48,923 nucleotides of DNA, from the NCBI GenBank assembly GCA_040392075.1, contig JBEBWQ010000001.1, forward strand, positions 1 to 48,923, given 5' to 3'. Position 1 is the first letter of the stretch; each line of letters begins with the position of its first letter. Source of the DNA: Microbacterium sp. (GTDB lineage Bacteria > Actinomycetota > Actinomycetes > Actinomycetales > Microbacteriaceae). Positions 9,963 to 31,155 of the stretch are shown one piece after another. The notes below the pieces were generated by a model, which worked only from the letters and a program-made list of their open reading frames with translations, had not been told where the DNA came from and searched no databases. The position numbers and the translations under genes were made by a program.

Positions 9963-10099
9963 TTCGAGAGGAGGAAATCTAGGGAGCCCGTTATGTTCCT
10001 TATGGCGGGGAAAGGCCGACCCGTCCGCGCCGGAGGCTACGGGATGGAGGACCGTGACCCGCCGGCGATGACGAGTCTCCCCGATCGCGTAGGCCGAGC

Positions 10100-10132
10100 C
10101 GTATTCCGAGCATCCGTCGTATCCCGAGCATC
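10100..10132. repeat. Direct repeat CGTATYCCGAGCATC x2, 18-bp period
   Basis: 10100-10114 and 10118-10132 differ at one base. Confidence 0.75.
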
Positions 10133-10212
10133 AATGAAGAGGTCTGGATGATGAGAAACTCGCGCCTGGGACCCTTCCCGCGCATCCTTCCGAGGACGAG
10201 AGGAGCGGTCTG

Positions 10213-12371: not shown

Positions 12372-12404
12372 CCTCGGACCAATGGCGGCGATGGAGCGTC
12401 GCCG

Positions 12405-15296
12405 TCACTGATCCGCAGCGGCCACGTCGTTCGCGGGCTCCCGCCCTGACCCTCGTGTCGCACGCTCGAGAAGCTCGAGGACGTGCTGATACGGATGTCC
12501 GGTGGCGCGGGTCATCGCCAGCTCGCATGTCCGGTTGCAGGATGCATGTGCCTGAGCCTGAAGGGAAGCGACCTCCGCGGCTTCGGGGCGGGTCGCGGCA
12601 GCCGTAAGCTCGGGGTGAAGCATCCCGCGATCGCCGGCGTAGGCGCAGCACCCCCAGTCCGTGGGTACGTGCACCGTCCGCGCTGTCGCTTCTGCGACGT
12701 GAATGAGCTGCGGGTCGAGCTCCAAGTGACGGGACGAGCAGGTCGGATGAAGCACGAGTGAGTCCACGACCGGCTCAGCCGACACTCTGGGGAGGATTTC
12801 CGTGGCGGCGAACTCGACCGAGTCCACGACGTGGAATCCCTCGGACCGGAGGATCCGGGCGAAACCCTCCGTGCAGCTGGAGGCGTCGCTGATCACCGGT
12901 AGCTTTCGTCCGCCGCTCGCGCTGCGGACCGCGCCTCGGACACGGGTCGTCATTGCGGACAATCCCTCCGTGTAACCCTTCGAGGACCACGGCGTGCCAC
13001 AGCAGAGGGATTCGATCCCTGACGGCACGATGAGCCGGACGCCCGCTCGTTCCGCCAGCGTGACGAGCGCGGAAGTCGCCCCCGGCCCGCCTTCGGCGGC
13101 TCCGAACATGCTGTTGACGCAGGAGGGGAGATAGACGGCCATCGGCTCGTCGTCACCACTGCCCACGGTACCGTGCAACGTGCGCCGTGCGCCGCCCCCG
13201 GCCGGCAGCTCCGAGCTGTAGCGGGGGACGGTGTCGGCTCCCACCGCGGCACGCGCCGCATCCGTGATTCCCCGCACCAGGGATGAGGGGAGCACGTTGG
13301 CGACGGTGAGCATCGCCGCGCCGGCGCGCGTGACGGCTCCCCAGTGCTTCGCGGCGATGTCCCACCCCGCTGCGAGGACGGGGTTTTTCACTTCTCGCCT
13401 GAGCCGCTTGACCAGCGTGCCGGTGTCTATGAGCACGGGGCACGCGGTCTGGCACATGCCGTCGACGGCACAGGTCTGGATGCCATCGTAGGCGTAGTCG
13501 CGTTCGAGGGAGCCGGCGAGCGTGTCGTCGCCATCGGCGACGGCGGTCGCATGTGCCCGACGCACGACGATGCGCTGTCGGGGTGTGAGCGTGAGATCAC
13601 GGCTCGGGCAGACGGGCTCGCAGTAGCCGCATTCCACGCAGCGATCGACTTCGGCCTCCACGACCGGTGCGGATTTGAGGTGCCGCAGATGGGCGTGAGG
13701 ATCATCGTCGATGATCACACCGGGGTTGAGGATGCCGGCCGCGTCGCACAGCGACTTCACCTGCCGCATCACGTCGTACAGTTCCTCGCCGTACTGGCGG
13801 CGCACATACGGGGCCATCACCCGTCCGGTGCCGTGCTCGGCTTTGAGATTGCCGCCGGCGTCGAGCACCATATCGACCATGTCCTCGGTGAAGGCCAGAT
13901 AACGATCCAGCGCGCGATCCTCGGCGAAGCGATCGGTCAGCATGAAGTGGATGTTGCCGTCCTTGGCGTGTCCGAAGATCACGCTCTCACCATAACCATG
14001 ACGATAGAACAGCTCCTGAAGGCCGCTGCACGTATCCGCGAGCGCTGGCACGGGGACAGCGATGTCTTCCAGCAGCGCCGTGGTCCCCCGGGGACGAGCG
14101 CCGGCGACAGATGCATACAGACCCTTGCGGAACTTCCACGCCACATCGCGTTCGGCCCGAGCCGCGGACAGCCGGGTCGGGGTGCGGAGCGCGAGTCCGC
14201 TCAATGCCGCGTTGCCAGCCTCTGCGTGCGGGCGTAACTCATCCGCAGTCACCCCCTGGTACTCGATGAGCAACGCTGCCTCATCGTGGACCTCGAACCC
14301 GAGGATCTGCTGAGGGGCTGCCGGCATGGACTGTCCCACACGCAGAGATGTCGCGTCCATCAGCTCCAGCGTCGTCGCTCCGGAGTCCACCAATGCGGGC
14401 AGGGCGGACGCAGCGGCTCGCAGTGTCGGAAAGACGGCGAGAGTCGTCGCTGTCTCGTTCCGCACCGGCACGGTGAGGAAGGTCGCCTCCGCGACGAACG
14501 CGAGCGTCCCCTCCGATCCCACGACCAGGTGCAGGAGAAGCTGCACCGGATCCTCGTGGTCGAGAAAGGCATTGATCCCATAGCCCATCGTGTTCTTCAG
14601 TGCGAACTGCCGACGGATCAAGGCCACCGACCGGGGGTTCTCCCGCACTCGTCGCTGCAGCCGCAGAAGCCCGTCGATGAGTTCCGGTTCGCGTTCTCCG
14701 AGCAGGGCCCGGGCATCCGTGCGCGCGGTGTCTATCACTGTGCCGGAAGGCAGGACGAGCACGGCGGATTCGAGCGTGCGATAGGTGTTCTCCTCGATGC
14801 CGCAGGCCATCCCGCTCGAATTGTCGGCGATGACGCCGCCGACGGTGCACGCCGCCTCGCTGGCCGGGTCAGGACCGAGACGCCGATTGTGCCGCGCGAG
14901 GTGCGCGTTCACCTGCCGTACGGTTGCGCCGGGCTGCACGCGCACGCGGGCGCCGTTGTCCAAGACCTCGATGCGCCGGAACCGCTGGCGTACATCGATG
15001 AGCACCCCGTCGCTGATCCCTTGACCCGAAAGACTGGTCCCTCCTGAACGGAACGTCACTCGCTCGCCGGTGCTCGTTGCCGCTCGGAGGATGGCGGCGA
15101 CCTCGGCGGCGTCTGCCGCGACGATCACCGCCTTCGGGGTGAGGAGGTAATGCGATGCATCGCTCGCATAGGCGGCCCGATCGATGGCCCGCGACTTGAT
15201 TCGAGCGGCATCGGCAACCGCCGCGCGGAGGTCGGCCGAGATGCCCGGCGCTTCCCCCGGGGGAAGAGGCCTCTTGACGGCAGAAATGTCTGACAT
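12405..15296 (-). CDS. FAD-binding and 4Fe-4S oxidoreductase (GlcD+GlcF-type fusion; D-lactate/2-hydroxyacid dehydrogenase-like)
   Basis: FRSGGTSLSGQ, GPDPAS, GHAKDGNIHF, KAEHGTG, CVECGYCEPVCP and CCG domains. Confidence 0.9.
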   Translation of the reverse strand: MSDISAVKRPLPPGEAPGISADLRAAVADAARIKSRAIDRAAYASDASHYLLTPKAVIVAADAAEVAAILRAATSTGERVTFRSGGTSLSGQGISDGVLIDVRQRFRRIEVLDNGARVRVQPGATVRQVNAHLARHNRRLGPDPASEAACTVGGVIADNSSGMACGIEENTYRTLESAVLVLPSGTVIDTARTDARALLGEREPELIDGLLRLQRRVRENPRSVALIRRQFALKNTMGYGINAFLDHEDPVQLLLHLVVGSEGTLAFVAEATFLTVPVRNETATTLAVFPTLRAAASALPALVDSGATTLELMDATSLRVGQSMPAAPQQILGFEVHDEAALLIEYQGVTADELRPHAEAGNAALSGLALRTPTRLSAARAERDVAWKFRKGLYASVAGARPRGTTALLEDIAVPVPALADTCSGLQELFYRHGYGESVIFGHAKDGNIHFMLTDRFAEDRALDRYLAFTEDMVDMVLDAGGNLKAEHGTGRVMAPYVRRQYGEELYDVMRQVKSLCDAAGILNPGVIIDDDPHAHLRHLKSAPVVEAEVDRCVECGYCEPVCPSRDLTLTPRQRIVVRRAHATAVADGDDTLAGSLERDYAYDGIQTCAVDGMCQTACPVLIDTGTLVKRLRREVKNPVLAAGWDIAAKHWGAVTRAGAAMLTVANVLPSSLVRGITDAARAAVGADTVPRYSSELPAGGGARRTLHGTVGSGDDEPMAVYLPSCVNSMFGAAEGGPGATSALVTLAERAGVRLIVPSGIESLCCGTPWSSKGYTEGLSAMTTRVRGAVRSASGGRKLPVISDASSCTEGFARILRSEGFHVVDSVEFAATEILPRVSAEPVVDSLVLHPTCSSRHLELDPQLIHVAEATARTVHVPTDWGCCAYAGDRGMLHPELTAAATRPEAAEVASLQAQAHASCNRTCELAMTRATGHPYQHVLELLERATRGSGREPANDVAAADQ

Positions 15297-15341
15297 GAAT
15301 TCAGTCTAGACAATAGAGTCACGATATTCTGCTCTTCGTCT

Positions 15342-15355
15342 TTCGGAAACTCGAA
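15342..15355. promoter_or_regulatory. Candidate operator (reverse strand TTCGAG-TTT-CCGAA)
   Basis: 11/14 identity to 9949-9962; lies between the divergent oxidoreductase and CoA ligase genes. Confidence 0.5.
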
Positions 15356-15522
15356 GACCCGTTGCGGGAGGATCCGCTCGCGCATTGAATGCAGATATTC
15401 GAAGACGAGCTCCGCGAGGGGAGCTCTCCCCCGCCCGGCGACGCCACCTCCGCCAAGCTCTCCGCGGCGCTGAGCCTCCGGTGCGTTTGGGCGGATGCCA
15501 TGTCGAAAGGAATTCTGATCCC

Positions 15523-17220
15523 ATGGGCGTCGAAGCTCTCACGCTGAGCTCGTTCGGGCCGACCGGCTGGGAGGCTGAGAAGCTTCCCCCGGTTGCGCAG
15601 ACGCTGCCGGAGATGCTCGACCACCTGGCGGCGTCGCGGCCGGACTCCGAGGTTCTGGTCTCGAGCTCGGGCCGTCTCACCTATCGGGAACTGGCGAGCA
15701 AGGTGGGCTCGTGCGCCGCCGCGCTGGCGAAGCTGGGGGTGAACCGCACAAGTCACGTCGCGCTCCTCGCGCCGAACATCGAAGAGTGGCTCGTCGCCGC
15801 TTTCGCCACGATGCGGCTCGGGGTGCCGGTCGACTGTTTCAACACCTGGGTGCGAGCGTGGGACCTGGACTTCCTGCTGAAGTCGGCCCAGACCGAGGTG
15901 CTGATCATGACACCCGGAGTGCGTTCCCACGACCTGCTGGGCGAGTTGAAGACATTGGTGCCCGAATTCTGGGATTCCCGCGGTCCGGTCGTGAGCCGGG
16001 ATTTCCCTGCACTGCGTCATCTCATCACCATCGGGGACGTCGCCGTGGAGACACCGCTCCCTTGCGCTGCACGCGACTTCCACACACTGCTCGCGGAGAC
16101 AGCGGGCGGATCGATCCCGCTGAACCGTGCCGCCGGTGCGGAACCGGCGGTGATCGTGTACACCTCCGGAACCACGAGCTATCCCAAAGCCGTGCCGCTG
16201 TGTCATCGGCACCTGATCGAGAACGGGCATGCGATAGGGGAAAGGATGGGCTTCGGCGCGCACGAGCGCGTCTGGCTGGGATCTCCCCTCTTCTGGAGCT
16301 ACGGAATAGCGAACGCCGCCATGGCCACGATCACTCATGGCGGCTGCCTGGTCCTGCAAGAGCGATTCGCGCCCGTCGAAGCGGCCGGCGTCCTCGCTTC
16401 CGAACGCTGCACGGCCGTGTACCTGCTGCCGAGCCTCGCTCTGTCGCTGGAGGAGGGCGCCGCTGCGGAGGTGCGGGCGATCGAGTCTCTGCGCACCGGC
16501 GTGATGATCGGCCGGCCGGAGGAGGTGGAACGGGCGATCATCGAGCTTGCGATACCCCAGCTGTGCAATGTCTACGGGCAGACGGAGACGTATGGCAACT
16601 GCTGCGTCACTCCGTACGCCGCGCCGGACCCCGAGCGGGTGTCTACGCAGGGCCCGCCTTTGCCGGGAGTCGAGCTGAGGATCGTCGACCCCGGCACTCA
16701 CGACGTGGTGCCCATCGGCGAGCGCGGAGAGATCTGGGTGCGGGGGCGAATCACTCTCGGCTATGCGAACAACCCGGAGGCGACGCGCGAAGCGTTCACT
16801 GATGACGGCTGGTATCGGACGGGGGACATCGGGATGATGAGCCCTGACGGCGGTCTGCAGTTCAGCGGTCGACGGTCCGAGATGATCAAATCGAACGGGA
16901 TCAACATCTCCCCGGCGGAGGTAGAGGGGTTCATCGCGGGTCTTCCTGCGGTCGAGGAGGTCGTGGTCGTCGGCGCTCCGCATCCGGCTCGGGGGGAGGT
17001 CGCGATCGCGTTCATCGTCGCACGGTCCGGACAGCCGATTTCCGAGAGCTCGGTCCTCCAGCGGTGCCGAGACTCCATCGCCGGGTTCAAAGTGCCCTGG
17101 GCTGTCGAGTTCATCGAAGAGTTGCCCCGCACGGCGACCGGCAAAGTCACCCGAAAAGAGTTGACGGGTCCCGCCGCTGATCTCGTCGCCATGCGGCTTG
17201 CAGCGGTCGTCGACCCCTGA
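15523..17220 (+). CDS. Acyl-CoA synthetase (AMP-forming CoA ligase)
   Basis: YTSGTTSYPK, YGQTE, WYRTGD, GRRSEMIK and PRTATGK motifs; GAAAGG RBS. Confidence 0.92.
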   Translation: MGVEALTLSSFGPTGWEAEKLPPVAQTLPEMLDHLAASRPDSEVLVSSSGRLTYRELASKVGSCAAALAKLGVNRTSHVALLAPNIEEWLVAAFATMRLGVPVDCFNTWVRAWDLDFLLKSAQTEVLIMTPGVRSHDLLGELKTLVPEFWDSRGPVVSRDFPALRHLITIGDVAVETPLPCAARDFHTLLAETAGGSIPLNRAAGAEPAVIVYTSGTTSYPKAVPLCHRHLIENGHAIGERMGFGAHERVWLGSPLFWSYGIANAAMATITHGGCLVLQERFAPVEAAGVLASERCTAVYLLPSLALSLEEGAAAEVRAIESLRTGVMIGRPEEVERAIIELAIPQLCNVYGQTETYGNCCVTPYAAPDPERVSTQGPPLPGVELRIVDPGTHDVVPIGERGEIWVRGRITLGYANNPEATREAFTDDGWYRTGDIGMMSPDGGLQFSGRRSEMIKSNGINISPAEVEGFIAGLPAVEEVVVVGAPHPARGEVAIAFIVARSGQPISESSVLQRCRDSIAGFKVPWAVEFIEELPRTATGKVTRKELTGPAADLVAMRLAAVVDP

Positions 17221-17587
17221 CGGCGCGTCACGGTATCGGCAAGAGTCTCGGAGGCGGACGCAGTCCCGCGAGACCTGGGCGGCTCGGCTGGAGTGAGAGG
17301 GACGGCGGGAGTTCGTCCAGACGGGTGAGCCTGTTCTTTCCCGACATCCTCGGCGCGCGGCCGGGGATCAACGACCGTTACGCTTAAGTAGGAAGGTCCT
17401 CATATCTAGCCGAAAGGGTCTTCCCGAGCAGTCACGAATCACGGGTGCATGGCATAGGCGGGCCGTGCAGGGGGTGACGTGCGCGGGATGATTGGGTAGA
17501 ACTGGAACAAGACCTATCGGCTGCCGGTCTTGGATCAAGGATTCCACAGCCACGACTGGATTGTTCAAAAAGCGAAGGGTGGGTCCG

Positions 17588-18238
17588 ATGGTTAGGCAGG
17601 TTCGCGCGGTTTCCATCGTTGATGCGATCGCTGAAGACCTCCGGACTCGGCTGTTCACAGGGCAGCTCAAGAAGAACGCGCAGCTCACCGAGGCCAGTGT
17701 GTCGACGATGTACGAGATCGCCCGCCCCACGGCGAAGGCGGCGATCGAGAAGCTCGTCGGTGAAGGGCTCCTCGTCCGCGGGCCCCACAAGACGGCGCGT
17801 GTTCCAGCACTCGGGGCCGACGACATCCGCGACATCTACTGGAGCAGGGAATACCTGGAAAGCGTGGCCATCCGGCGCCTCGCGGGTAAGAGCGAAGTCC
17901 CCGAAAGCGTCTACCTCGCAGAACGAGAAGTCGTCCGCGCACGCGATGCGGGCGTGCCGATCATCGAACCGGACATGCGGTTTCACCTGAGTCTCGTCGA
18001 ATCGCTGCAGAGCCCACGAATCACCAAGGCGTACGAGTCCCTCATCGTCGAGGTGCGCTTGTGCTGGAGCCAGATCGAGGGCCAGCAGCTCTTCAGCTCT
18101 GACCTGATGTGTCAAGAGCATGAAAAACTGCTCGAGTTCATCTCCGCCGGCGATACCGACGCAGCGCTCGTTGCTCTCGCTGACCACCTGGGACGCTCTC
18201 GTGAACGGCTGGCCGCGGTCTTAACGCAGGACGCATAG
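17588..18238 (+). CDS. GntR/FadR-family regulator with FCD domain
   Basis: wHTH (LTEASV..IARPTAKAAIEKL..EGLL), DMRFH and EH..L..I..GD. Confidence 0.88.
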   Translation: MVRQVRAVSIVDAIAEDLRTRLFTGQLKKNAQLTEASVSTMYEIARPTAKAAIEKLVGEGLLVRGPHKTARVPALGADDIRDIYWSREYLESVAIRRLAGKSEVPESVYLAEREVVRARDAGVPIIEPDMRFHLSLVESLQSPRITKAYESLIVEVRLCWSQIEGQQLFSSDLMCQEHEKLLEFISAGDTDAALVALADHLGRSRERLAAVLTQDA

Positions 18239-18471
18239 TTCTTCGCGCCCGAACGGCGAAAGCTGTGAGCAGGCACCGGGCGGCGGATGAGGGTGTGCCT
18301 TCGTAGGCGACGGCGAGCGCTTGCCGCTTCCTGCCGTACGTCCGTGAATCGCTTCGCTCCCCTCCTGACGGGTCGTCGAGCCGGACCGTAGCAATAATCG
18401 TGTCCTTCGCGGGGCGCGAGCTCTCGGATACTCAGTGTGTCCGCGAGCCTTCCTTTACGCGCCGCCTATGC

Positions 18472-18489
18472 GTATACTTGTCATACAAG
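18472..18489 (+). promoter_or_regulatory. -10 box TATACT overlapping a GntR-type palindrome CTTGT-CAT-ACAAG
   Basis: Perfect 5-bp arms at 18477-18489; related sites at 26616-26633 and 26741-26758. Confidence 0.7.
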
Positions 18490-18536
18490 CATTCGCATTT
18501 CCACTGAAGGATCTGGTGCTCACGGAAGGAGTCCAC

Positions 18537-19682
18537 ATGGCAGACGTCTTGTCCGGGACGCGGGAGGTGGCCGGCAGGGAAGCCCGCGGTGGAGATGAGC
18601 GGACCGCGGTCTCGCCCGTCGTGGACTGCGACGTCCACCCCGTCCTCGCCTCACCGCGCTTGCTGCTTCCTTATCTGGACGATTTCTGGCGCGACCAGAT
18701 GCGGGCGCAGCACTATCCCTTCTACGAACCCAACTATCACCCTCCGGGTTCTCCCATCGCTCAGCGCCCGGAGGCGCAGGTCGATGAGGACGGTCGGGCA
18801 GCGACGACGGTCGGCAATCTGGTTGCCGATGTCTTCGCGGACGGCTTCGTTGACTACGCGATCTTGAACTGCCTCTACGGGGTTCAACAGATCCACCAGC
18901 CGCGACGCGAGATCGCTCACGCACGCGCACTCAACCGGTGGATCGCAGCCGAGTGGCTCGACGCCGACCCGCGTCTTCGCGCCTCGATCGTCGTTCCCAT
19001 GGGCACTCCCGAGGAGGCGGCGAAAGAGATCAGGTACTGGGCGACGGACAGCAGATTCGTCCAGGTCCTCGTGCTGTGCCAGTCCGAGGTGCTCCTCGGA
19101 CGTCAGATCAACTGGCCGATCTGGGAGGCGGCTCAAGAGGCGGGCCTGCCGGTCGCCATCCATCTCGGGGGGGTATTCCGACAGGCGCCGACGACCGCGG
19201 GATGGCAGTCGACGTATCTCGAGTGGTATGTCGGCCAGCAGTCAACCTTCGAAGCGCAGCTCGCGTCCATCGTTGCTGAAGGAATTTTTCAGAAGTTTCC
19301 CCATACGAAGGTCGTCCTCGCGGAAAGCGGTTTCACCTGGTTTCCGCCATTCGCCTGGAAATTCGACCAGGTGTGGAAGAGCTACCGCACGGAAATGCCC
19401 TGGCTGGACCGCCGGCCCAGCGAGATCATCCGCGAGAACGTCTTCTTCACGACGAGCCCTTCCGACGGTGCCGCCCGACCCGGTCGCCTCGACCGGATCG
19501 TGGACCGGATGGGATCGGACCGGATGCTGGTGTATTCGAGCGACTATCCGCACCGTCATGCGAGTGGGCCGCGGGAGATCGACGACGGCACGGACAGCCC
19601 TGAGCTCTTGGATCGCATCTATCGACGGAATGCGGCTTCCCTGTACAACCTGACGCCCCGAGGGATGAATCGCGAAGGATAG
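18537..19682 (+). CDS. Amidohydrolase-fold protein, probable oxygenase subunit 1 (AibH1-like)
   Basis: DCDVHP, WPIWEAA, AIHLGG, AESG and SSDYPH motifs; first gene of an operon with ferredoxin and reductase. Confidence 0.78.
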   Translation: MADVLSGTREVAGREARGGDERTAVSPVVDCDVHPVLASPRLLLPYLDDFWRDQMRAQHYPFYEPNYHPPGSPIAQRPEAQVDEDGRAATTVGNLVADVFADGFVDYAILNCLYGVQQIHQPRREIAHARALNRWIAAEWLDADPRLRASIVVPMGTPEEAAKEIRYWATDSRFVQVLVLCQSEVLLGRQINWPIWEAAQEAGLPVAIHLGGVFRQAPTTAGWQSTYLEWYVGQQSTFEAQLASIVAEGIFQKFPHTKVVLAESGFTWFPPFAWKFDQVWKSYRTEMPWLDRRPSEIIRENVFFTTSPSDGAARPGRLDRIVDRMGSDRMLVYSSDYPHRHASGPREIDDGTDSPELLDRIYRRNAASLYNLTPRGMNREG

Positions 19683-19685
19683 GAC

Positions 19686-20807
19686 ATGACAATCGAACTC
19701 GCCCTGGACGCTGACACGAGGACGCTGGGCGCTCCTCGGGTCGACGTCGGAATCATCGATGTAGACATTCACCCGGTGCCCCCTCCCGGTGCGCTGGACG
19801 CGTATCTGCCGAAGCGCTGGCGCGATCACACGGAGCAGTTCGGCCGTCGTCAGCGGAATGGGCTCGACTCCATCGTGGAGAACCCGCCGGTCTTCGGAGG
19901 AATGAGAGGCGACGCCTGGCCGGCGAACGGCAATCCCCCGGGATCGGATCTCCCTCTGCTCCAGGAGCAGCTGCTCGATCGCTACAACATCCAGCTCGGC
20001 GTCATGGAGTGCCTGGACGGCGCTGCCGGTGCCATCCAGAATCCGGGCCTCGCGGAGGCTCGTTCGCGCGCCATCAACGATTGGCAGCTCGAGAACCTGG
20101 TCTATCCCGAACCGCGACTGCGTGCCGCGATGGTGGTGCAGCAGGAGCATCCCCATCTCGCGGCCCGGGAGATCGATCGCATAGGTGATGACCCTGGGGT
20201 GGTCTCCGTGCTCTTCGGGGCACAGTCTCTCGAACCCCTGGGCAATCAGAAGTACTGGCCGATCTATGAGGCGGCGGTCCGCCACGGGCTTCCTATCCAG
20301 GCGCACGTGTCACAGGGCGGAGGCCACCCCAACACCGGCACCGGGTGGACGTCCTACTACGCGGAGTACCACGTCGGTCTGGCCCAGACCTTCCAGACCC
20401 AGGTTCTCAGCCTGATCACCGGTGGAGCTTTCGACGAGTTCCCGGACCTGAAGTTCCTGCTCGTCGAGGGGGGAGTTCTGCACCTTCCCGCTTTGCTGGA
20501 ACGCTTCGATCATCACTGGGAGAACTTGCGTGCCGAAGTCCCCGAGCTCTCGCGGAAGCCGTCGGAGTACATCCGGGATCACATCTTCGTCACCACTCAG
20601 CCCATCGAGGAGCCGCACAAGTCCGAGTTCCTCCTTGAGATCATCGAGGAACTGGGGACGGACAACGTGCTCTTCGCCTCCGACTACCCGCACTGGGATT
20701 TCGACGCACCGGATACCTCTTCCCTCCCCCATCTGCCGCCCGACGTGCAGGACAAGATCCTTCGGGGAAACGGGAAGAGACTCTTCGGACTCGAGGATCC
20801 GGCATGA
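19686..20807 (+). CDS. Amidohydrolase-fold protein, probable dinuclear catalytic oxygenase subunit (AibH2/PtmU3-like)
   Basis: DVDIHP, QAHV, EYH, VEGG, TTQPIEEP and ASDYPHWD motifs. Confidence 0.8.
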   Translation: MTIELALDADTRTLGAPRVDVGIIDVDIHPVPPPGALDAYLPKRWRDHTEQFGRRQRNGLDSIVENPPVFGGMRGDAWPANGNPPGSDLPLLQEQLLDRYNIQLGVMECLDGAAGAIQNPGLAEARSRAINDWQLENLVYPEPRLRAAMVVQQEHPHLAAREIDRIGDDPGVVSVLFGAQSLEPLGNQKYWPIYEAAVRHGLPIQAHVSQGGGHPNTGTGWTSYYAEYHVGLAQTFQTQVLSLITGGAFDEFPDLKFLLVEGGVLHLPALLERFDHHWENLRAEVPELSRKPSEYIRDHIFVTTQPIEEPHKSEFLLEIIEELGTDNVLFASDYPHWDFDAPDTSSLPHLPPDVQDKILRGNGKRLFGLEDPA

Positions 20808-21292
20808 CGCGGTACATCGTGGGGCGCGCCGACACGGTCCCGCCCGGGGAACGCCTGATCGTCGAGATCGAAGGCCGGTCCATCGGTGTCTTCAACGTCG
20901 GTGGCGAGTATTTCGCGCTTCTGAACCAGTGCCCGCACGCGGGCGCTCCGTTGTGCTCGCATGGCACGCTGTTCGGTGCGGCGGAGGCGGATGAGCCGGA
21001 CGGAGAGGTCCGGTACACCCGTCACGGTGAACTGCTTCGCTGCCCCTGGCACAGATGGGAGTTCGATCTGCGCACAGGGCAGTCGTGGTTCGATCCGCGC
21101 AACCTGCGAGTTCGGCAGTATGCGGTCGACGTGATACCCGGATCGCCCGAAGCCGTCACGGATCCGGATGGCGGCCTGCAACAGGGCCCGCACATCCTTG
21201 AAGGGTACGACGTCGAGATCACCGACGACGAGTTGCTCGTCATCGACACGAGCCGGCGCAGACAGGGAACGCAGGCGCAGCGCGGACAGTGA
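20804..21292 (+). CDS. Rieske [2Fe-2S] ferredoxin
   Basis: CPHAG...CPWH ligands, WEFDLRTG; ATGA overlap. Confidence 0.92.
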   Translation: MTRYIVGRADTVPPGERLIVEIEGRSIGVFNVGGEYFALLNQCPHAGAPLCSHGTLFGAAEADEPDGEVRYTRHGELLRCPWHRWEFDLRTGQSWFDPRNLRVRQYAVDVIPGSPEAVTDPDGGLQQGPHILEGYDVEITDDELLVIDTSRRRQGTQAQRGQ

Positions 21293-22332
21293 TCGATCCG
21301 GCGAGACGAGACGCCGAGCGGGTGCATACCCGTTTCGAAGGCGGCAGACGTGGCGAGGAGGAGGTGTCCATGGTGACAGGATCAGCGGTGGGGGAGTACC
21401 GCACCGTACGTGTTGCGGCCGTCATTCCGCAAGCAGAGGACATCGTCTCTCTGATCTTGACTTCGGCCGACGGCAGTCCTCTCCCGGAATGGACCGGCGG
21501 CGCTCACATCGATATGCTCCTCAAGGAGGGGCTGGAACGGCAGTACTCCCTCTGCGGGAGCCCGGACGACCGTGCCCACTGGCGTATCAGCGTCCTCCGC
21601 GATCCGCACAGTCGTGGGGGCTCGGCGTGGATCCACTCCGAGATCCACGTCGGTGACCGCGTGAAGGTCCGCGGGCCTCGCAACAACTTTCCGCTGATCA
21701 GCGCGCAGGAGTATCTCTTCATCGCCGGAGGGATCGGGATCACCCCCTTTCTGCCCATGATCTCGGCCCTCGAATCTGCCGGTCAGAGCTGGCGTCTTGT
21801 CTATGGCGGCCGGCGGATCAGCTCGATGGCATTCGTCGACGAGCTCTCGGCGTACGGGGACAAAGTCCTTCTCTGGCCGCAGGATGGACGCGGCCTCATC
21901 GACCTCGAGTCGCTCCTTGCGAGCCCCAGACGCGACGTGGCCCTCTACGCGTGCGGCCCCGAGGCTCTCCTCGGAGCGGTGGAGGAGCGATCTGCGCACT
22001 GGCCCTCGGACGCGCTTCATCTTGAGCGCTTCCGACCGCGGGCCGGAGCCCTCGAGGGGGTGAACAGCTCCTTCGAAGTGGTCCTTGACACGTCTGGCCT
22101 GTCCATAACGGTCGAGCCGACCCAGACCATCGTCGATGCCGTGCTCGAGGCGGGTGTGCACGTGCCCACGTCCTGCCGCGAAGGCACGTGCGGGACCTGC
22201 GAGACGTTCGTCCTCGAGGGCATCCCCGACCATCGCGACTCGTACCTCACGCCGCAGGAGCGCGAGACCAATGAGGTGATGATGGTCTGCTGTTCGCGCG
22301 CCAAGACCGCTCGGCTCGTCCTGGACCTCTGA
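21289..22332 (+). CDS. PDR/VanB-family flavin/[2Fe-2S] reductase
   Basis: RQYSL, SRGGS, GGIGITP, CGP and CREGTCGTC...CCSR motifs; start could be ATG 21370. Confidence 0.93.
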   Translation: MIDPARRDAERVHTRFEGGRRGEEEVSMVTGSAVGEYRTVRVAAVIPQAEDIVSLILTSADGSPLPEWTGGAHIDMLLKEGLERQYSLCGSPDDRAHWRISVLRDPHSRGGSAWIHSEIHVGDRVKVRGPRNNFPLISAQEYLFIAGGIGITPFLPMISALESAGQSWRLVYGGRRISSMAFVDELSAYGDKVLLWPQDGRGLIDLESLLASPRRDVALYACGPEALLGAVEERSAHWPSDALHLERFRPRAGALEGVNSSFEVVLDTSGLSITVEPTQTIVDAVLEAGVHVPTSCREGTCGTCETFVLEGIPDHRDSYLTPQERETNEVMMVCCSRAKTARLVLDL

Positions 22333-22398
22333 CGTCGTCGGAACTCTGACCTCGCGCCCGATTCTTCATCACACTATTCGCAGAAAGCAGGTAATCCC

Positions 22399-23853
22399 AT
22401 GTACGAACAGCGCCAATTCTTCATCGGGGGTGAATGGGTTTCCCCCCACGCGGAGGCGATGATCTCCGTGCTCGATCCAGCGACGGAAGAGCTCTCCGGA
22501 CGTTTCATCGATGGAACCGAGGCCGACATGGACCGCGCAGTGGCAGCGGCCCGGCAGGCGTTTGACAGCGGCCCGTGGCCGAAGATGTCCCACGTGGAAC
22601 GCGCGGAGGTTCTGGCGGCCGCCGCAAAGCGGTTGCGCGCCCACGGGGAGGAAATGGCATTCACGCTGACGGCCGAGATGGGCTCTCCTATTTCGCAGTC
22701 CATCCACGCTCAGATGCCGATCGCCGCTGGCTTGTTCGAGTACTATGCGGGCTTGGCCGAGGAGTTCACGTGGGAGACGCGGCGGCCCGCCCATGATGAG
22801 GCGAACCAGGGTTTTGACGTTCTCGTCCGCAAGGAGCCGGTGGGCGTGGTGGCCGCGATCGTCCCGTGGAACGGACCGCAGATCGTTGCGGGAATGAAGC
22901 TGGGCCCTGCGCTGCTGGCCGGCTGCACGGTGGTTCTCAAGCCGTCCCCTGAAGCGACTCTGAACTTCGTCAAGTTCGCTGAGGCGTTCCGGGAGGCGGG
23001 CCTTCCCCGCGGGGTGCTGAACATCGTTCCCGCCGGCCGTGAGGTCGGTGAATATCTCGTCACTCATCCCGGTGTGGACAAAGTGACGTTCACGGGAAGC
23101 ACAGCCGCAGGACGACGGATCGGCGCGTTGTGCGGTGAGCGGATCCGCCGTTGCACGCTTGAGCTGGGCGGAAAGTCGGCAGCGATACTGCTGGCCGATG
23201 CGGACCTCGACGTCGTCGTGCCGAACCTGATGGCGCCATTGATGTTCATCAGCGGCCAGGCGTGCAACGCGCAGACCCGCATCCTCGCGCCCCGTGAACG
23301 ATACGATGAGGTCGTCGATGCTCTCGTGAGCGCGGTCGATGCCACCCCGTACGGGGACCCTCGGGATGAGCAGACGTTCGTGGGGCCTCTTGCTTCCCGT
23401 GCCCAGCGCGACCGCGTGATGGGCTATATCGAGATCGGTAAGAACGAAGGCGCCAAGGTCGCCCTGGGCGGCGGCAGGCCGGCAGGATACGACAAGGGCT
23501 GGTACGTCGAGAAGACGGTTCTCCGGGATGTCGACAACTCCATGCGCGTGGCTCAGGAGGAGATCTTCGGCCCGGTCTTCGTCGTCATCCCTTACGAGGG
23601 CGTGGACGAGGGCGTCGCCATCGCCAACGATTCGCCGTATGGACTCGCCGGGTCGGTGTGGACCAGCGACGATGAGGCGGGCCTTGCTGTGGCAAAGCGT
23701 GTACGGTCCGGGCTCCTGGGCGTCAATATCTCGACCCTGGACAGCGCGGCGCCGTTCGGTGGTTTCAAGAACTCGGGTATCGGTCGCGAGCGTGGTCCCG
23801 AAGGAATAGATCCGTATCTGGAGATTCAGGGGGTCCTGGTTCCTTCTCGGTGA
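22399..23853 (+). CDS. NAD(P)-dependent aldehyde dehydrogenase
   Basis: PWN, FTGST, LELGGKS, catalytic Cys in GQAC, EEIFGP and PFGGFKNSG. Confidence 0.95.
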   Translation: MYEQRQFFIGGEWVSPHAEAMISVLDPATEELSGRFIDGTEADMDRAVAAARQAFDSGPWPKMSHVERAEVLAAAAKRLRAHGEEMAFTLTAEMGSPISQSIHAQMPIAAGLFEYYAGLAEEFTWETRRPAHDEANQGFDVLVRKEPVGVVAAIVPWNGPQIVAGMKLGPALLAGCTVVLKPSPEATLNFVKFAEAFREAGLPRGVLNIVPAGREVGEYLVTHPGVDKVTFTGSTAAGRRIGALCGERIRRCTLELGGKSAAILLADADLDVVVPNLMAPLMFISGQACNAQTRILAPRERYDEVVDALVSAVDATPYGDPRDEQTFVGPLASRAQRDRVMGYIEIGKNEGAKVALGGGRPAGYDKGWYVEKTVLRDVDNSMRVAQEEIFGPVFVVIPYEGVDEGVAIANDSPYGLAGSVWTSDDEAGLAVAKRVRSGLLGVNISTLDSAAPFGGFKNSGIGRERGPEGIDPYLEIQGVLVPSR

Positions 23854-24037
23854 CGAGGGGAGGTTCCGCGCGTCACTTCGGGGTTCGCGGCAGCGGTGAC
23901 CCCCGAGGACATGGCGCCTCGACATAGCGCTTCGATGAACCGGGGAGAAGAGTCGGTGCGATGCGTGCGCCGGTCCCTCGGCGGGACGGGAGCATCGGGA
24001 CCGCCTCGGCCCGGCGGATCTGGAGAAAGGCGGCGGT

Positions 24038-24979
24038 GTGCCTGACTATCGAAGCGCCAGCATCCGCGACGAATACCGGTTCCCCATCGAGGAGCTGGCC
24101 GTGCGCCGGTTCGCGGAAGCAGCGTGGGATGACAGCCCGCGGTTCTGTCTCTCGGGCGGCAGCGCTGCGGGGGATGTGCCGCTGATGTTCGGATGCCTTG
24201 GCGCAACCCTGACCGGACGGGTGCACCCGCTGGAGAGCGTCGGCTTCGATGTCGCGCGCTCATTCCACGGCGAGGAGACGATACTGCTGTACTCCCCGCT
24301 GCGCACCGGGACCACGCTTCTCGTGCGAGATGCGACGCTCCGTCTTCCGGATCTCGCCGGGAGGCGCGGCGGTGCAATGCATCGCACCAGGCGGCGCAGC
24401 CTGCTGGTGGACGAGGCCGGCGATGTCGTCGGGGTGGTGACACGGACCATGTTGGAGACGGCCAATCCGCTGATCGGCTCGGCACCGACCGAAGATGCAT
24501 CCCTCTTCGACGACGGGTTGAGGGTTCGCGCAGACCCTGTCGATGCGCAACCGACTCCTCTCCGTGCTGTTCGCAGCGGTCAGACTCTTCCGTTTGGGGA
24601 GTTCGGCCCCCTGACCCGCGCGGATTTCGTCCGCTACAGTGCCGCCAGCGGCGACCTCACGTCGATCCACTATGATGAGAATGCGGCACGATCGCGCGGC
24701 TACCGCACGACGTTCGCGATGGGCATGCTCTCCGCCGCATTCATCGGCCATATGGTCACGGACTGGTTCGAGCTTGAGTATCCGTGCCGGCTCTCCGTCA
24801 GATTCCAGGATCAGGTCTGGCCAGGAGACACGCTGGTGATCACCGGGGATGTCGTGACGGCGGACGAGAAAAGGGTGATCGTCACCATCCGTTGCCGTTC
24901 AGGTCGGGGACCGGCAACGACCGCGGTTCTCGAACACTGGAGGCCGGGAGCGCCTGCGCCCGGCCCGGATGACTACTGA
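24038..24979 (+). CDS. Double-hotdog MaoC-family (de)hydratase
   Basis: N-terminal MaoC-N (VRRFAEA, HGEE); C-terminal YSAASGDLTSIH, AMGM and VWPGDTL. Confidence 0.82.
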   Translation: MPDYRSASIRDEYRFPIEELAVRRFAEAAWDDSPRFCLSGGSAAGDVPLMFGCLGATLTGRVHPLESVGFDVARSFHGEETILLYSPLRTGTTLLVRDATLRLPDLAGRRGGAMHRTRRRSLLVDEAGDVVGVVTRTMLETANPLIGSAPTEDASLFDDGLRVRADPVDAQPTPLRAVRSGQTLPFGEFGPLTRADFVRYSAASGDLTSIHYDENAARSRGYRTTFAMGMLSAAFIGHMVTDWFELEYPCRLSVRFQDQVWPGDTLVITGDVVTADEKRVIVTIRCRSGRGPATTAVLEHWRPGAPAPGPDDY

Positions 24980-25009
24980 TATGTGAAGGATCCACCGCCA
25001 GGTGAGAGG

Positions 25010-25045
25010 GACGAAGCGCCGCCGGGCTATCGGCGGCGCTTCGTC
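25010..25045. terminator. Hairpin between convergent genes, probably a bidirectional terminator
   Basis: 15-bp perfect stem GACGAAGCGCCGCCG/CGGCGGCGCTTCGTC with a 6-nt loop. Confidence 0.8.
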
Positions 25046-25279
25046 GTTCGTCCCGGGCGCCGGTGCGACCCCTCTTCAGGGCTGAACCGACAGGACTGCC
25101 GTCGGCGGAGCCCGGCTCTCTCGCCGCCGGCGTTCGCGAAGCGCGTTCGGACGGGTGAGAAGCGGAAAGTCCCCCGCATCGCTGCGGAGGACTTTCGCGC
25201 TCCTCGGCGCTACCGAGGCCGGCCTGCGGAAGAGTCAGGGCCTGGTCAAGGTACCGGTGCCGCGCCGATGCTCTCGCGG

Positions 25280-26539
25280 CTATTTCCCGAGCACGTCGGC
25301 ACGGACGACCTCGAGGAGGCCGGACCAGTCGACTTCTCCGCCATCCTTGAAGGACTGCAGCAGGTCAGGTTGCTGACCTGCAGGAGGAAGCGAAAGTCCC
25401 ACTTCAGCCGTCAGAACCGTCAGCCAGTGAGCAAGAGAATCCTCGTAAGACTTCACGAAGCCCGCGGGATCCTTCACACCCGCCGGTGCATTGTCCGCCA
25501 TCGCGGCGCGAGCTGCCTCCTGGTGGCGAAGGAGCGCCGCGCTCAACTCGTCCGGCATCGGCTGGGCGATCAGCCCCTGCTCTTCGACGCCTTCGACGCT
25601 GAACCGGGTCATCGCCTCCATGACGCTCGTGACGCCGGCTTCGAAGTGGGTCAGACTGGCCTCGCGGAAGATCTGCTGGATCTCGGGGGAGAGGGAGTTC
25701 CAGACGTCGAGGTTCATCACGTTCACGTTGCCCGGGAAGGCGCTGAACGGCTCCGGGCTCACGTACTTCGCCACTTCCCACAGGCCGGCGTCGGCGAGTG
25801 CGAACGGAGGGTTCACCACGCAGTCCAGCACGCCGCGCTGCAGGCTCTCGTACATCTCCCCGAACTCGGTGAACGCCCCCGTCATGCCGAGTGATGCCAC
25901 CTCCGCTTCCCAGACGGCACCGCCGATGCGGGCGCGCATCCCCCGGGCGACCTCCGGCGAGTCGATCGGCTTATTGCAGAGAGCGTAGAAGTTCGGCGAC
26001 GAGGTCCCGGTCAGGACCTTGAGATTGTGATCTGCGAACTCGGCGGCGAGGGATTCGTCCGTCATAAAGGTCTCGAAGGCCGCGGCGTAAGCCTGGAGGT
26101 AGCCGATCGGGTAGGAGCCCTCCTGGGCGCTGCCCATAGGCAGCATCCAGTTCGCGATCGGGAGTTCTTGCGGGTGGAACGATGTCGAGACCCATCCGAT
26201 GTCGGCGATGCCCGATCCTACGGCATCGACCGTCTCGGTGCCGGGAAAAAGCGATGCCGAAAAGAACTTCTCGAACGTCACCTTGCCGCCCGTGCGCTCT
26301 TCGATCTCATCCAGGAAGGCCGCGGCGGCCTTCCCGTTCGCGTCGCCTTCGGCAACGAAGGATGCGTAGGTCAGCGTGATCGGTTCCATGTCTGCAATGG
26401 CCCCCCCGGCGCCGGGGACCCCCGTCGCCTCGGCATCCTGAGCTGCGCTGCCGCCGCTGCATGAGGCCAGCAGCAGGATCCCTGCGGCCAGGCCTGCGGT
26501 GACCTTGGCCCCTATCCCCACTCGTCGCAATGCGTTCAT
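25280..26539 (-). CDS. dctP: TRAP substrate-binding lipoprotein
   Basis: Lipobox LLLASC; EIEERTGGKV, GIADIG, GMRARI, EMYESLQRGVLD and WNSLSPEIQ. Confidence 0.88.
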   Translation of the reverse strand: MNALRRVGIGAKVTAGLAAGILLLASCSGGSAAQDAEATGVPGAGGAIADMEPITLTYASFVAEGDANGKAAAAFLDEIEERTGGKVTFEKFFSASLFPGTETVDAVGSGIADIGWVSTSFHPQELPIANWMLPMGSAQEGSYPIGYLQAYAAAFETFMTDESLAAEFADHNLKVLTGTSSPNFYALCNKPIDSPEVARGMRARIGGAVWEAEVASLGMTGAFTEFGEMYESLQRGVLDCVVNPPFALADAGLWEVAKYVSPEPFSAFPGNVNVMNLDVWNSLSPEIQQIFREASLTHFEAGVTSVMEAMTRFSVEGVEEQGLIAQPMPDELSAALLRHQEAARAAMADNAPAGVKDPAGFVKSYEDSLAHWLTVLTAEVGLSLPPAGQQPDLLQSFKDGGEVDWSGLLEVVRADVLGK

Positions 26540-26615
26540 TGGATCGACTCTCCTTTGAATCGGTTACAGAATCTGGGCGATGGCGCCCACCAGGACATGG
26601 ACGCTTCCCCGCCCA

Positions 26616-26633
26616 TGTGTTAGACAAACATAC
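26616..26633 (-). promoter_or_regulatory. Candidate dctP promoter/operator GTATGTTTGTCTAACACA
   Basis: Inverted homologue of 26741-26758 and 18472-18489. Confidence 0.6.
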
Positions 26634-26740
26634 TCTACTGACATGTTCCATTGGTGGGGATTGCGTCGGAGATGATAACAGCTTGGTCTCGGTGGCCTCG
26701 ATCGCCGGGCTGCGCGGGATGCTTGCCACAAGCGCTATCT

Positions 26741-26758
26741 GTATGCTTGTCTAGCAAG
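26741..26758 (+). promoter_or_regulatory. Candidate promoter/operator GTATGCTTGTCTAGCAAG
   Basis: TATGCT -10 plus CTTG-N5-CAAG dyad about 40 bp before the start codon. Confidence 0.65.
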
Positions 26759-26798
26759 TACGCAGGTTGTAGGCGTGCACATGAAGGAGTGTGAGTAA

Positions 26799-29405: not shown

Positions 29406-29454
29406 GGATCGATCATCGGATTCCGAACTAACCCGCCAGAGACGAGGAAGACCA

Positions 29455-29937
29455 ATGCCCTATAGCAGCGCCAGCCCCCGACCAGAATCGGGTGCCAATG
29501 CCGTTCACGGCAAACCCATCCCTGATCCCGATGACCCACTGACCGGTCCGTTCTGGGCAGGGGCGAATCAGAAGCGACTGCTGATCCAGCGGTGTGAGCA
29601 GTGTGCGAGATTCCACCACCCCCCGGTCGGCATCTGCAAAGATTGTCTGTCCACGGACCTGACGTTTGTGGAGGTGACAGGTGACGGTCATGTATACAGT
29701 TTCGCGGTGGTGAAGGATCAGCGTATTCCGGCGTTCGACGCACTCGTGCCGTATGTGGTGGCGTCCGTCGAACTCGACGATGCCCCGGGGGTCTTTCTCC
29801 AGACGAATCTGCCGGGAACGCCGATCGACGGCGTTCGTTCCGGTTTGGCGGTGACGGTCGACTTCGAGGAGATCTCACCCGGAGTCAACATCCCGCAGTT
29901 CCGTCCGAGGGAAGGGGGTGACGACGATGTCGAATGA
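29455..29937 (+). CDS. Zn-ribbon/OB-fold (DUF35) protein
   Basis: PFW, QRCEQC...PP...CKDC, GHVYSF and PYVVASVEL. Confidence 0.9.
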   Translation: MPYSSASPRPESGANAVHGKPIPDPDDPLTGPFWAGANQKRLLIQRCEQCARFHHPPVGICKDCLSTDLTFVEVTGDGHVYSFAVVKDQRIPAFDALVPYVVASVELDDAPGVFLQTNLPGTPIDGVRSGLAVTVDFEEISPGVNIPQFRPREGGDDDVE

Positions 29938-31093: not shown

Positions 31094-31155
31094 GACTGTT
31101 GCGGGGTCAGATGGTCGACGGCCCGTGATCGGATGACAACACGTGCGCACGAGAA

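What the first reader, a model, noticed from the sequence alone, without database searches (positions are those of the whole stretch)
18537..22332. Cryptic metallo-monooxygenase likely to be annotated as two amidohydrolases
Seen: tightly coupled amidohydrolase, amidohydrolase, Rieske ferredoxin and PDR reductase, with no Rieske oxygenase alpha subunit or P450 to accept the electrons. Known: this architecture matches the Rhodococcus 2-aminoisobutyrate hydroxylase AibH1H2 with its ferredoxin and reductase, reported to use a Mn/Fe cofactor for unactivated C-H bonds. Subunit 2 ends DYPHWD while subunit 1 ends DYPHRH, which suggests catalytic versus structural roles. Amino-acid catabolic partners are absent and CoA enzymes plus TRAP surround it, so the substrate is probably new.
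Basis: partly seen in the sequence, partly recalled or inferred. Interest (0 to 1): 0.88.

Follow-up and report, generated by a model that had tools for sequence, protein, structure and literature searches.

The report
Manganese-iron oxygenase for branched acids
Two genes that look like hydrolases are close relatives of a known manganese/iron oxygenase and sit with their electron-supply genes on an inserted gene island, where they likely add a hydroxyl group to a small branched acid other than the known substrate: a known enzyme family with a probably new target.

Summary
Confirmed: H1–H2–Rieske–reductase, and no Rieske alpha subunit or P450 among the ORFs scanned. H1 and H2 are 70% and 58% identical to Rhodococcus AibH1 and AibH2. 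All metal ligands are kept, H1 lacks the binuclear Asp, and H2 meets the published criteria for a Mn-type amidohydrolase-related dinuclear oxygenase (ARO). The family is known (~17,000 sequences), and the scan met it before on other DNA.

It is probably not an Aib hydroxylase:
- One clade with the Aib-type H2s is rejected (p-AU 0.00014).
- Pocket-side residues differ, including a Lys kept in 55 of 55 relatives that is Gln here.
- Aib pathway genes are missing.

The cassette lies on a 28-kb low-GC3 insertion. It shares a 17-bp palindrome, the best match genome-wide, with a double CoA-transferase/OB-fold/aldolase-like operon. CoA genes are usual for this clade (9 of 10 close loci, 5 of 59 distant). 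Lactate-oxidation genes recur (4 of 10, 0 of 59).

Most likely route (inferred): β-hydroxylation of a branched acid, CoA transfer, then retro-aldol cleavage, possibly giving lactate. Five related clusters look like an undescribed 2-hydroxyisobutyrate hydroxylation pathway. The substrate is untested.

The parts
18475..18491 (.). Palindrome TACTTG-N4-ACAAGCA upstream of H1; candidate operator of the adjacent GntR/FCD regulator
18537..19682 (+). H1: AibH1-like mononuclear partner subunit (D32, H34, H209, E263, D336, H339; His341 where the binuclear Asp would be; Gln278 in place of the conserved Lys)
19686..20807 (+). H2: AibH2-like dinuclear catalytic subunit (D27, H29, H207, E261, D333, H336, second-sphere D338; gamma1 I28, gamma2 E108, gamma4 W337, gamma5 F339)
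20804..21292 (+). Rieske [2Fe-2S] ferredoxin, AibG-like
   Evidence: 59-66% identity to the ferredoxins of close clade loci
21370..22332 (+). PDR/VanB-type flavin-[2Fe-2S] reductase, AibF-like
22399..23853 (+). Aldehyde dehydrogenase, probably co-transcribed; only 38% identical to the clade's AibE-like enzymes
24038..24979 (+). Double hot-dog MaoC-like dehydratase/hydratase
17588..18238 (+). GntR/FCD regulator
15523..17220 (+). AMP-forming acyl-CoA ligase
12405..15296 (-). FAD/Fe-S 2-hydroxyacid dehydrogenase, probably a D-lactate dehydrogenase
10213..12371 (+). TRAP transporter DctQ and DctM
25280..26539 (-). TRAP solute-binding protein DctP
26744..26760 (-). Second copy of the palindrome (14 of 17 bases match), upstream of the double CoA transferase
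26799..29405 (+). Two-domain family III CoA transferase
29449..29937 (+). Zn-ribbon/OB-fold (ChsH2/DUF35) partner; start approximate
29918..31093 (+). Thiolase-fold protein most like the aldolase Ltp2 (no nucleophilic Cys; Tyr of the YD motif kept; second Tyr replaced by Arg)
3342..9828 (-). IclR-headed operon: two thiolase-like proteins, OB-fold protein, Zn alcohol dehydrogenase, cyclase-family hydrolase, CoA transferase; same island, link to the oxygenase not shown
3200..31100 (.). Low-GC3 catabolic island (limits approximate) inserted between a thiolase and a 5'-nucleotidase gene

Best explanation
The four genes encode an AibH1H2GF-like three-component monooxygenase, predicted to use a Mn/Fe centre, that likely hydroxylates the beta-carbon of a small branched carboxylic acid other than 2-aminoisobutyrate and likely feeds the product into CoA-dependent carbon-carbon cleavage. 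Shown: gene order, homology, all metal ligands, the Mn-type residue signature, a separate branch within the AibH clade, and a palindrome shared with the CoA-transferase/OB-fold/aldolase-like operon. Inferred by homology with AibH1H2GF: NADH passes electrons through the flavin/[2Fe-2S] reductase and the Rieske ferredoxin to the two-metal site of H2, which activates O2, while H1 holds one structural metal in an alpha2-alpha'2 complex. Inferred from context (about 0.25-0.3 for the full route): the TRAP system imports a 2-methyl-2-hydroxy acid (2-hydroxyisobutyrate or a longer homologue); the oxygenase makes the 2,3-dihydroxy acid; the double CoA transferase activates it; the Ltp2-like aldolase with its OB-fold partner cleaves it to an aldehyde and lactyl-CoA; the operon's aldehyde dehydrogenase removes the aldehyde; and the FAD/Fe-S dehydrogenase oxidises lactate to pyruvate.
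For: H2 versus AibH2: E 2.6e-139, 58% identity to the authentic sequence P0103; model pLDDT 89.9 and Foldseek TM 0.92, rmsd 1.6 A to 8FUN_B. H1 versus AibH1: E 6e-177, 70% identity. The seven H2 site residues are invariant in 81 aligned sequences. The Mn-type criteria of PMC13154177 Table 1 are met, and the genome has nrdI. An AU test rejects one clade with three Aib-type H2s, p 0.00014. A scan of the 2.37-Mb genome with the H1 palindrome alone gives one other site at <=3 mismatches, upstream of the double CoA transferase. CoA genes occur in 9 of 10 close loci and 5 of 59 distant loci; lactate-oxidation genes in 4 of 10 and 0 of 59. L081 carries the same cassette beside a 60%-identical double CoA transferase, thiolase-like and OB-fold genes. 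No acyl-CoA dehydrogenase family hit the island's ORFs, so the beta-hydroxy group that an aldolase needs could come from the oxygenase.
Against: No activity, metal or substrate was measured. H1 Gln278 replaces a Lys found in 55 of 55 close relatives that hydrogen-bonds the catalytically important Asp342 in AibH1H2 (PMC12141560 and PMC10401708, passages); H2 Asn66 replaces a Tyr found in 45 of 46 core members. Both could mean impairment. The aldolase-like protein keeps only the first Tyr and lacks the His or Cys of YDHF/YDCY. The palindrome-like sites at dctP and at the lactate-dehydrogenase-like gene score 12.4 and 8.2 bits, within genome background. That dehydrogenase is common in the genus (40 of 100) and is only 55-58% identical to those beside other AibH cassettes. 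The island lacks the HIBADH, crotonase, IlvC and Lut genes of the 2-hydroxyisobutyrate-type clusters. Six of the 10 close loci come from one genus and two share a contig, so the counts overstate independence. Its two aldolase-like sets, MaoC hydratase and cyclase are more than a C4 acid would need.
Confidence: 0.55

Rival explanations
1. Same oxygenase, but the hydroxymethyl product is oxidised stepwise to a substituted malonate, CoA-activated and decarboxylated (the direct analogue of the Aib pathway, as the core-clade clusters suggest); the aldolase-like genes serve something else.
For: An aldehyde dehydrogenase follows the cassette, and a Zn alcohol dehydrogenase, CoA transferases and a lactate-dehydrogenase-like gene are on the island. 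Five close loci carry HIBADH, ALDH, crotonase and CoA transferase.
Against: No HIBADH or crotonase in the island, and its ALDH is only 38% identical to the clade's. The shared palindrome points to the operon that holds the aldolase-like gene.
Confidence: 0.13
2. An active oxygenase whose substrate is not a small free acid: for example a ketone released by retro-aldol cleavage, an N- or O-alkyl group (dealkylation, as SfbO does on a surrogate), or a larger terpenoid-like acid or CoA ester as with PtmU3 and DitZ.
For: The pocket side looks more hydrophobic (A179, V208, V230, L232), a 6-7-residue loop insert of AibH2 is missing, and the H1 Lys is lost. The island has two aldolase-like sets and a MaoC hydratase. 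The ALDH would remove a dealkylation aldehyde.
Against: AibH2's pocket is small (412 A3, against 1016 A3 for the CoA-ester enzyme PtmU3; PMC7782822) and H2 is 58% identical to it. No neighbour has a characterised orthologue pointing to a terpenoid.
Confidence: 0.15
3. A decaying or weakly active copy on a horizontally acquired island.
For: Changes at near-invariant positions (H1 K278Q, F50 for Tyr in 55 of 55; H2 Y66N). The single-domain CoA transferase at 3342-4364 looks short (model positions 1-315 of 366).
Against: All four frames are intact with every metal and Fe-S ligand. Many H2 differences are shared with its sister branch and the outgroup (Y225, G263, E308, W337). The operator-like palindromes are preserved.
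Confidence: 0.09
4. A true 2-aminoisobutyrate hydroxylase whose downstream genes lie elsewhere.
For: AibH1H2 is the closest characterised relative (70% and 58%), and the genome is only 60% complete.
Against: One clade with Aib-type H2s is rejected. Relatives at 65-75% to AibH2, closer than this one, also lack an adjacent SHMT-like AibC (5 of 5 genomes tested). The transporter is TRAP, not an amino-acid permease.
Confidence: 0.07
5. Two ordinary amidohydrolase-family decarboxylases or hydrolases next to an unrelated electron-transfer pair.
For: Pfam calls both PF04909.
Against: D-x-H and D-x-P-H-x-D motifs are present. Decarboxylases score E 1e-10 to 1e-17 and TM 0.60-0.69, against E 1e-139 and TM 0.92 for AibH2. 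A Rieske gene lies beside the cassette in 85 of the 109 related loci.
Confidence: 0.01

Closest known systems
AibH1H2-AibG-AibF, 2-aminoisobutyrate monooxygenase of Rhodococcus wratislaviensis C31-06 (PDB 6M1W, 8FUL-8FUO; PMC7782822, PMC10401708)
   Same: Gene order H1-H2-G-F; 70% and 58% identity; all ligands of both subunits; H1 lacks the binuclear Asp; interface Tyr kept (AibH1 Y287 = Y283).
   Different: Separate branch (AU p 0.00014); H1 K282 is Gln; H2 F341 is Trp, Y66 is Asn, and the loop insert is missing; no aibC, aibA, aibT or aibD1; TRAP, CoA transferases, aldolase-like and lactate-dehydrogenase-like genes instead.
Low-potential (Mn-type) amidohydrolase-related dinuclear oxygenases: SfbO, D3EI84, W7L2Y2, B6JH23 (PDB 8SM6-8SM9; PMC10811679, PMC13154177)
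   Same: D-x-H and D-x-P-H-x-D motifs, hydrophobic gamma1, hydrophilic gamma2, aromatic gamma4 and gamma5, adjacent Rieske ferredoxin.
   Different: Only 31-38% identical in structural alignment; SfbO's sulfate-binding Arg pair aligns with His229 and Leu232 here.
PtmU3 and DitZ (diiron, high-potential AROs)
   Same: Same fold and metal-binding residues; PtmU3 beta-hydroxylates a CoA ester in a CoA-linked pathway.
   Different: 21-24% identity; hydrophilic gamma1; PtmU3 has no auxiliary mononuclear partner and a much larger pocket.
Ltp2-ChsH2(DUF35) and Sal-Shy retro-aldolases (PDB 6OK1; PMC12329534), for the co-regulated operon
   Same: Thiolase fold without the nucleophilic Cys, Tyr of the YD motif, neighbouring Zn-ribbon/OB-fold gene.
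   Different: E only 5.5e-33; YDGY instead of YDHF/YDCY; second catalytic Tyr replaced by Arg; no steroid-pathway genes identified.

Membership tests
ARO superfamily | PF04909 TIM barrel | tested here: met
ARO superfamily | N-terminal D-x-H motif | tested here: met
   H2 D27-I28-H29
ARO superfamily | C-terminal D-x-P-H-x-D/E motif | tested here: met
   H2 D333-Y-P-H336-W-D338; absent from H1, as in AibH1
ARO superfamily | Internal His and Glu ligands (AibH2 H211, E265) | tested here: met
   H207 and E261 invariant in 81 sequences
ARO superfamily | Two bound metals and O2-dependent oxidation chemistry | not testable with these tools
   needs protein, ICP, EPR and 18O2 assays
Mn-type (low-potential) ARO | gamma1 hydrophobic, gamma2 hydrophilic, gamma4 aromatic (PMC13154177 Table 1) | tested here: met
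   I28, E108, W337; gamma2 placed by sequence alignment to SfbO T108, not by the paper's own alignment (supplement not read)
Mn-type (low-potential) ARO | Adjacent Rieske ferredoxin and aromatic gamma5 | tested here: met
   20804-21292; F339
AibH1H2GF three-component architecture | Mononuclear H1 partner, Rieske ferredoxin and flavin-[2Fe-2S] reductase in one operon | tested here: met
AibH1H2GF three-component architecture | alpha2-alpha'2 heterotetramer | not tested
   no complex prediction was run; a pass would follow from likeness to solved structures
2-aminoisobutyrate hydroxylase (orthologue) | Groups with AibH2 and its closest relatives | tested here: not met
   AU p 0.00014 on a quick tree of 36 rows (trees)
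2-aminoisobutyrate hydroxylase (orthologue) | aib pathway genes (aibC, aibA, aibT, aibD1) beside the cassette | tested here: not met
2-aminoisobutyrate hydroxylase (orthologue) | Converts Aib to D-alpha-methylserine | not testable with these tools
   needs an assay
ACMSD/LigW-type decarboxylases | Mononuclear site without the ARO motifs; best sequence and fold match | tested here: not met
Ltp2/Sal retro-aldolases (gene 29918-31093) | No nucleophilic Cys; YDHF or YDCY motif; general acid; DUF35 partner | tested here: inconclusive
   no Cys, Tyr kept and OB-fold neighbour present, but YDGY and Arg for the second Tyr

The most novel reading that the evidence does not exclude
The AibH clade is mainly a family of Mn/Fe hydroxylases for 2-hydroxyisobutyrate-type acids, not amino acids, and defines an oxygen-dependent, B12- and thiamine-independent route to lactate. 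The common form oxidises and decarboxylates through methyltartronyl-CoA (HIBADH, ALDH, CoA transferase, crotonase, LutABC; loci L080/L171, L154-L156, L159). This window holds a second form, in which a Mn/Fe oxygenase and a CoA-dependent retro-aldolase split a branched 2-hydroxy acid into lactate and an aldehyde.
Probability: 0.25. Interest if true: 0.7.

Novelty: new member of a known kind. Interest (0 to 1): 0.42.

Why it matters
Only a handful of these Mn/Fe oxygenases have a known reaction, and the papers read here say that most native substrates cannot be inferred. This locus and its relatives give a short, cheap candidate list (2-hydroxyisobutyrate and related branched acids), a candidate regulator site for finding the inducer, and natural pocket variants of a crystallised enzyme that hydroxylates unactivated methyl groups. 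If the clade-level reading holds, it adds a third route for degrading 2-hydroxyisobutyrate, the MTBE/isobutene intermediate, beside the mutase and lyase routes (PMC7176365, PMC13188929). The architecture and cofactor are themselves no surprise.

Tried and rejected
- Single-sequence fold: pLDDT 42.7, discarded; the alignment-based model was used. Model coordinates could not be read, so no pocket volume or docking was computed; 'pocket-side' positions come from alignments and paper passages.
- Genome draws: class 0 of 400 at E<=1e-100; order of G401, 1 distant match in 401; own genus 7 of 400, all 36-39%; family of G003, 1 of 301; genus of G401, 5 of 121.
- No convincing direct repeat marks the island ends, and no integrase family hit the ORFs scanned. 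The sigma-70 scan was at chance level.
- Closest plasmid relatives of the CoA ligase, thiolase-like proteins and double CoA transferase, and the DctP search, gave no characterised orthologue, so the substrate could not be read from them.
- Pivalate was considered (hydroxypivalyl-CoA retro-aldol); no support from neighbours or from the listing. It is kept only as a panel compound.
- A thiocarboxylate role for the double CoA transferase (PtmU4-like; PMC6006322, listing only) was not pursued.
- Sequencing runs: no RNA holder listed; two low-depth DNA holders from one insect-metagenome study, possibly the source. Their contigs cover the Q278 and N66 codons without change, which argues against an assembly slip but is not independent.
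- The HMMER search of representatives was still unfinished and gave no result.
- PMC5132332 and PMC2847961 (passages) had nothing on 2-hydroxyisobutyrate hydroxylation; PMC1489616 is not held.
- No complex prediction was run.


Full report
Observation. The four genes are at the stated coordinates, tightly coupled (3-nt gap, then an ATGA overlap), and followed after 66 bp by an aldehyde dehydrogenase. Pfam calls both large proteins Amidohydro_2 and NCBIfam names neither, so the predicted misannotation is real; close relatives are indeed deposited as 'amidohydrolase'. No Rieske alpha subunit or P450 family hit the 58 window ORFs or the 11.

What it is. H2's best solved relative is AibH2 (E 2.6e-139; 212 of 368 identical to the authentic sequence P0103). 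H1's best is AibH1 (E 6e-177; 70%). PtmU3 scores E 1e-17 and the decarboxylases 1e-10 to 1e-17. A model built on 81 sequences (pLDDT 89.9) matches AibH2 at TM 0.92 and rmsd 1.6 A, against TM 0.60-0.69 for decarboxylases. The AibH2 site residues D25, H27, H211, E265, D337, H340 and D342 (PMC7782822, text parts 1-3 of 6 and supplement 1 read) map to D27, H29, H207, E261, D333, H336 and D338, all invariant in the alignment. H1 keeps the AibH1 ligands and has His where the binuclear Asp would be, as do 55 of 55 close relatives. PMC13154177 (parts 1-6 of 9 read, supplement not read) defines about 17,000 AROs by these motifs and calls Mn dependence from gamma1, gamma2 and gamma4. Here they are I28, E108 and W337, the Mn-type pattern; gamma2 was placed by alignment to SfbO. 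The genome has nrdI, the indicator that PMC10401708 (parts 2-3 of 8, passages and a supplement search) used for Mn availability. PMC10811679 (parts 1-2 of 3) already used Rieske neighbours to find such enzymes.

Not an Aib orthologue. About 52 proteins at 44-60% identity (E <= 1e-119) form the AibH2 clade. In two quick trees the window's H2 groups with three metagenomic proteins (support 97 and 98), apart from AibH2 (P0043 and P0054, over 450 aa, were left out; the careful search did not finish). Forcing it together with three Aib-type sequences is rejected (p-AU 0.00014). It differs from the 46 core members at near-invariant positions, several shared with its sisters and the outgroup (Y225, G263, E308, W337) and one nearly private (N66 for Tyr), and it lacks the loop insert after strand 2. 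In H1, Gln278 replaces a Lys kept in 55 of 55 close relatives and 80 of 85 distant ones. In AibH1H2 that Lys bonds the second-sphere Asp342 (PMC12141560, passages), whose loss lowers activity (PMC10401708). Contigs from two runs of one study read the same letters (the Gln codon is covered in one run, the Asn codon in both). This may mean a new pocket or an impaired enzyme; I cannot separate the two.

Setting. Genes from about 3.3 to 31.1 kb have GC3 0.69-0.83, against 0.92-0.99 for the flanks. In 3 of 4 same-genus genomes examined, the flanking thiolase and 5'-nucleotidase genes lie within 0.4-1.8 kb of each other, so the region is an insertion. No close H2 was found in 400 genomes of the genus. 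The host is a high-GC actinobacterium, probably Microbacteriaceae (my inference; not named by a call), and the assembly is 60% complete.

Link to the CoA genes. A 13-bp-core palindrome lies 45 bp before H1, next to a GntR/FCD gene; its GT-N-AC shape fits FadR-type operators (recalled). Scanning the whole genome with this site alone gives one other match at three or fewer mismatches, 38 bp before the double CoA transferase/OB-fold/thiolase-like operon (five unrelated sites appear at four mismatches). The shuffle test (2 against 0 of 100) and the matrix used both sites and are partly circular. Sites near dctP and the FAD/Fe-S gene are at background level. The thiolase-like protein of that operon is closest to the retro-aldolase Ltp2, lacks the nucleophilic Cys and keeps the catalytic-base Tyr, but not the rest of the motif (PMC12329534, passages). 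The double CoA transferase has thiolase-like and OB-fold neighbours in all 4 related loci examined. One of them, L081, carries the same oxygenase cassette, and another has a 2-oxoglutarate-type dioxygenase instead.

What relatives say about the substrate. I compared 10 close loci (H1 64-74% identical) with 59 distant ARO loci of at least 15 kb; 4 close loci under 3.5 kb and 35 shorter distant loci were left out, and one close locus is 10.6 kb. CoA genes occur in 9 of 10 against 5 of 59, and lactate-oxidation genes in 4 of 10 against 0 of 59. Six close loci come from one genus and two share a contig, so no test statistic is given. Five close loci carry HIBADH, ALDH, crotonase, CoA transferase, LysR, GntR and ilvC, two of them with LutABC. 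None of 12 SHMT-family matches in five of these genomes lies near the cassette. That gene set is the Aib pathway with the amino-group steps replaced by CoA-linked decarboxylation and lactate oxidation, which fits 2-hydroxyisobutyrate (inference). In support, the known 2-hydroxyisobutyrate cluster of Mycolicibacterium ELW1 also carries ilvC, a GntR regulator and an MHS transporter (PMC13188929, passages), and 2,3-dihydroxy-2-methylpropionate is listed as an aerobic tert-butanol intermediate (PMC10894111, passage). The passages read describe only mutase and lyase enzymes for this acid (PMC7176365, PMC13188929). Searches showed no paper tying an ARO to it, but most subscription journals are not held. 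The window's FAD/Fe-S protein is probably a D-lactate dehydrogenase: 3 of 11 genus homologues examined sit beside a lactate permease, and a 40%-identical homologue precedes LutABC; the name Dld-II is recalled. The window lacks HIBADH, crotonase, ilvC and Lut genes (not found in the incomplete genome either, apart from a 36% crotonase), so it cannot simply copy that route.

Mechanism. Electron flow from NADH through the reductase and ferredoxin to a Mn/Fe site in H2, with H1 structural, is inferred from close homology (about 0.9 that it is such an enzyme). Aib hydroxylation places the new OH beta to a carboxylate, which is what a retro-aldolase needs once the acid is a CoA ester, and no acyl-CoA dehydrogenase on the island could supply it otherwise. 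I therefore commit to beta-hydroxylation of a branched acid followed by CoA-dependent cleavage (0.55), with the specific lactate-plus-aldehyde route at about 0.25-0.3. The rivals are stepwise oxidation and decarboxylation, a non-acid or larger substrate, a decaying copy, and Aib itself.

Verdict. Its value lies in a divergent pocket next to a solved enzyme, a testable shared operator, and a concrete substrate hypothesis for the clade. Interest 0.42.

Noticed in passing
L080 + L171 (Rhodococcus pseudokoreensis R79 plasmid, JWS13_RS03980-04080); L154, L155, L156, L159: AibH-clade cassettes with LysR, HIBADH, ALDH, crotonase, CoA transferase, GntR and ilvC, two with LutABC, and no AibC nearby: a candidate undescribed 2-hydroxyisobutyrate hydroxylation pathway to lactate.
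   Followed up: partly
window 26799-31093; L081, L123, L124, L125: Two-domain CoA transferase, thiolase-like protein and OB-fold protein recur together in 4 of 4 related loci examined, beside different oxygenases or oxidoreductases (ARO, PhyH-type dioxygenase, flavoprotein): possibly a general hydroxylate-then-cleave module.
   Followed up: partly
window 3342-9828: IclR operon with a degenerate and an intact thiolase-like protein (Gly for the nucleophilic Cys, Tyr in ELYAPF) plus an OB-fold gene; the same trio is on Rhodococcus qingshengii and Simplicispira plasmids. An 11-bp palindrome lies at 9910.
   Followed up: partly
window 31636-33420: The 5'-nucleotidase gene at the island's right flank is split over separate reading frames and looks truncated.
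   Followed up: no
P0054 (534 aa) and P0043 (650 aa): An AibH2-like protein fused to a Rieske domain, and a longer form of unknown make-up.
   Followed up: no
L081:4588-5211: A cobalamin adenosyltransferase gene lies near an AibH-clade cassette, hinting at a B12 enzyme in the same catabolic area.
   Followed up: no
G1295 contig C4 (L153, L155): Two AibH-clade cassettes near opposite ends of one 464-kb contig, one with the HIBADH module and one with thiolase, acyl-CoA synthetase and the lactate-dehydrogenase-like gene.
   Followed up: no
window 33816-36254: An Ala/Gly-rich repetitive 484-aa ORF and small followers without Pfam hits among those scanned.
   Followed up: no
window 47509-47787: A 92-aa ORF with an N-terminal hydrophobic stretch and a coiled-coil-like tail, no Pfam hit.
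   Followed up: no
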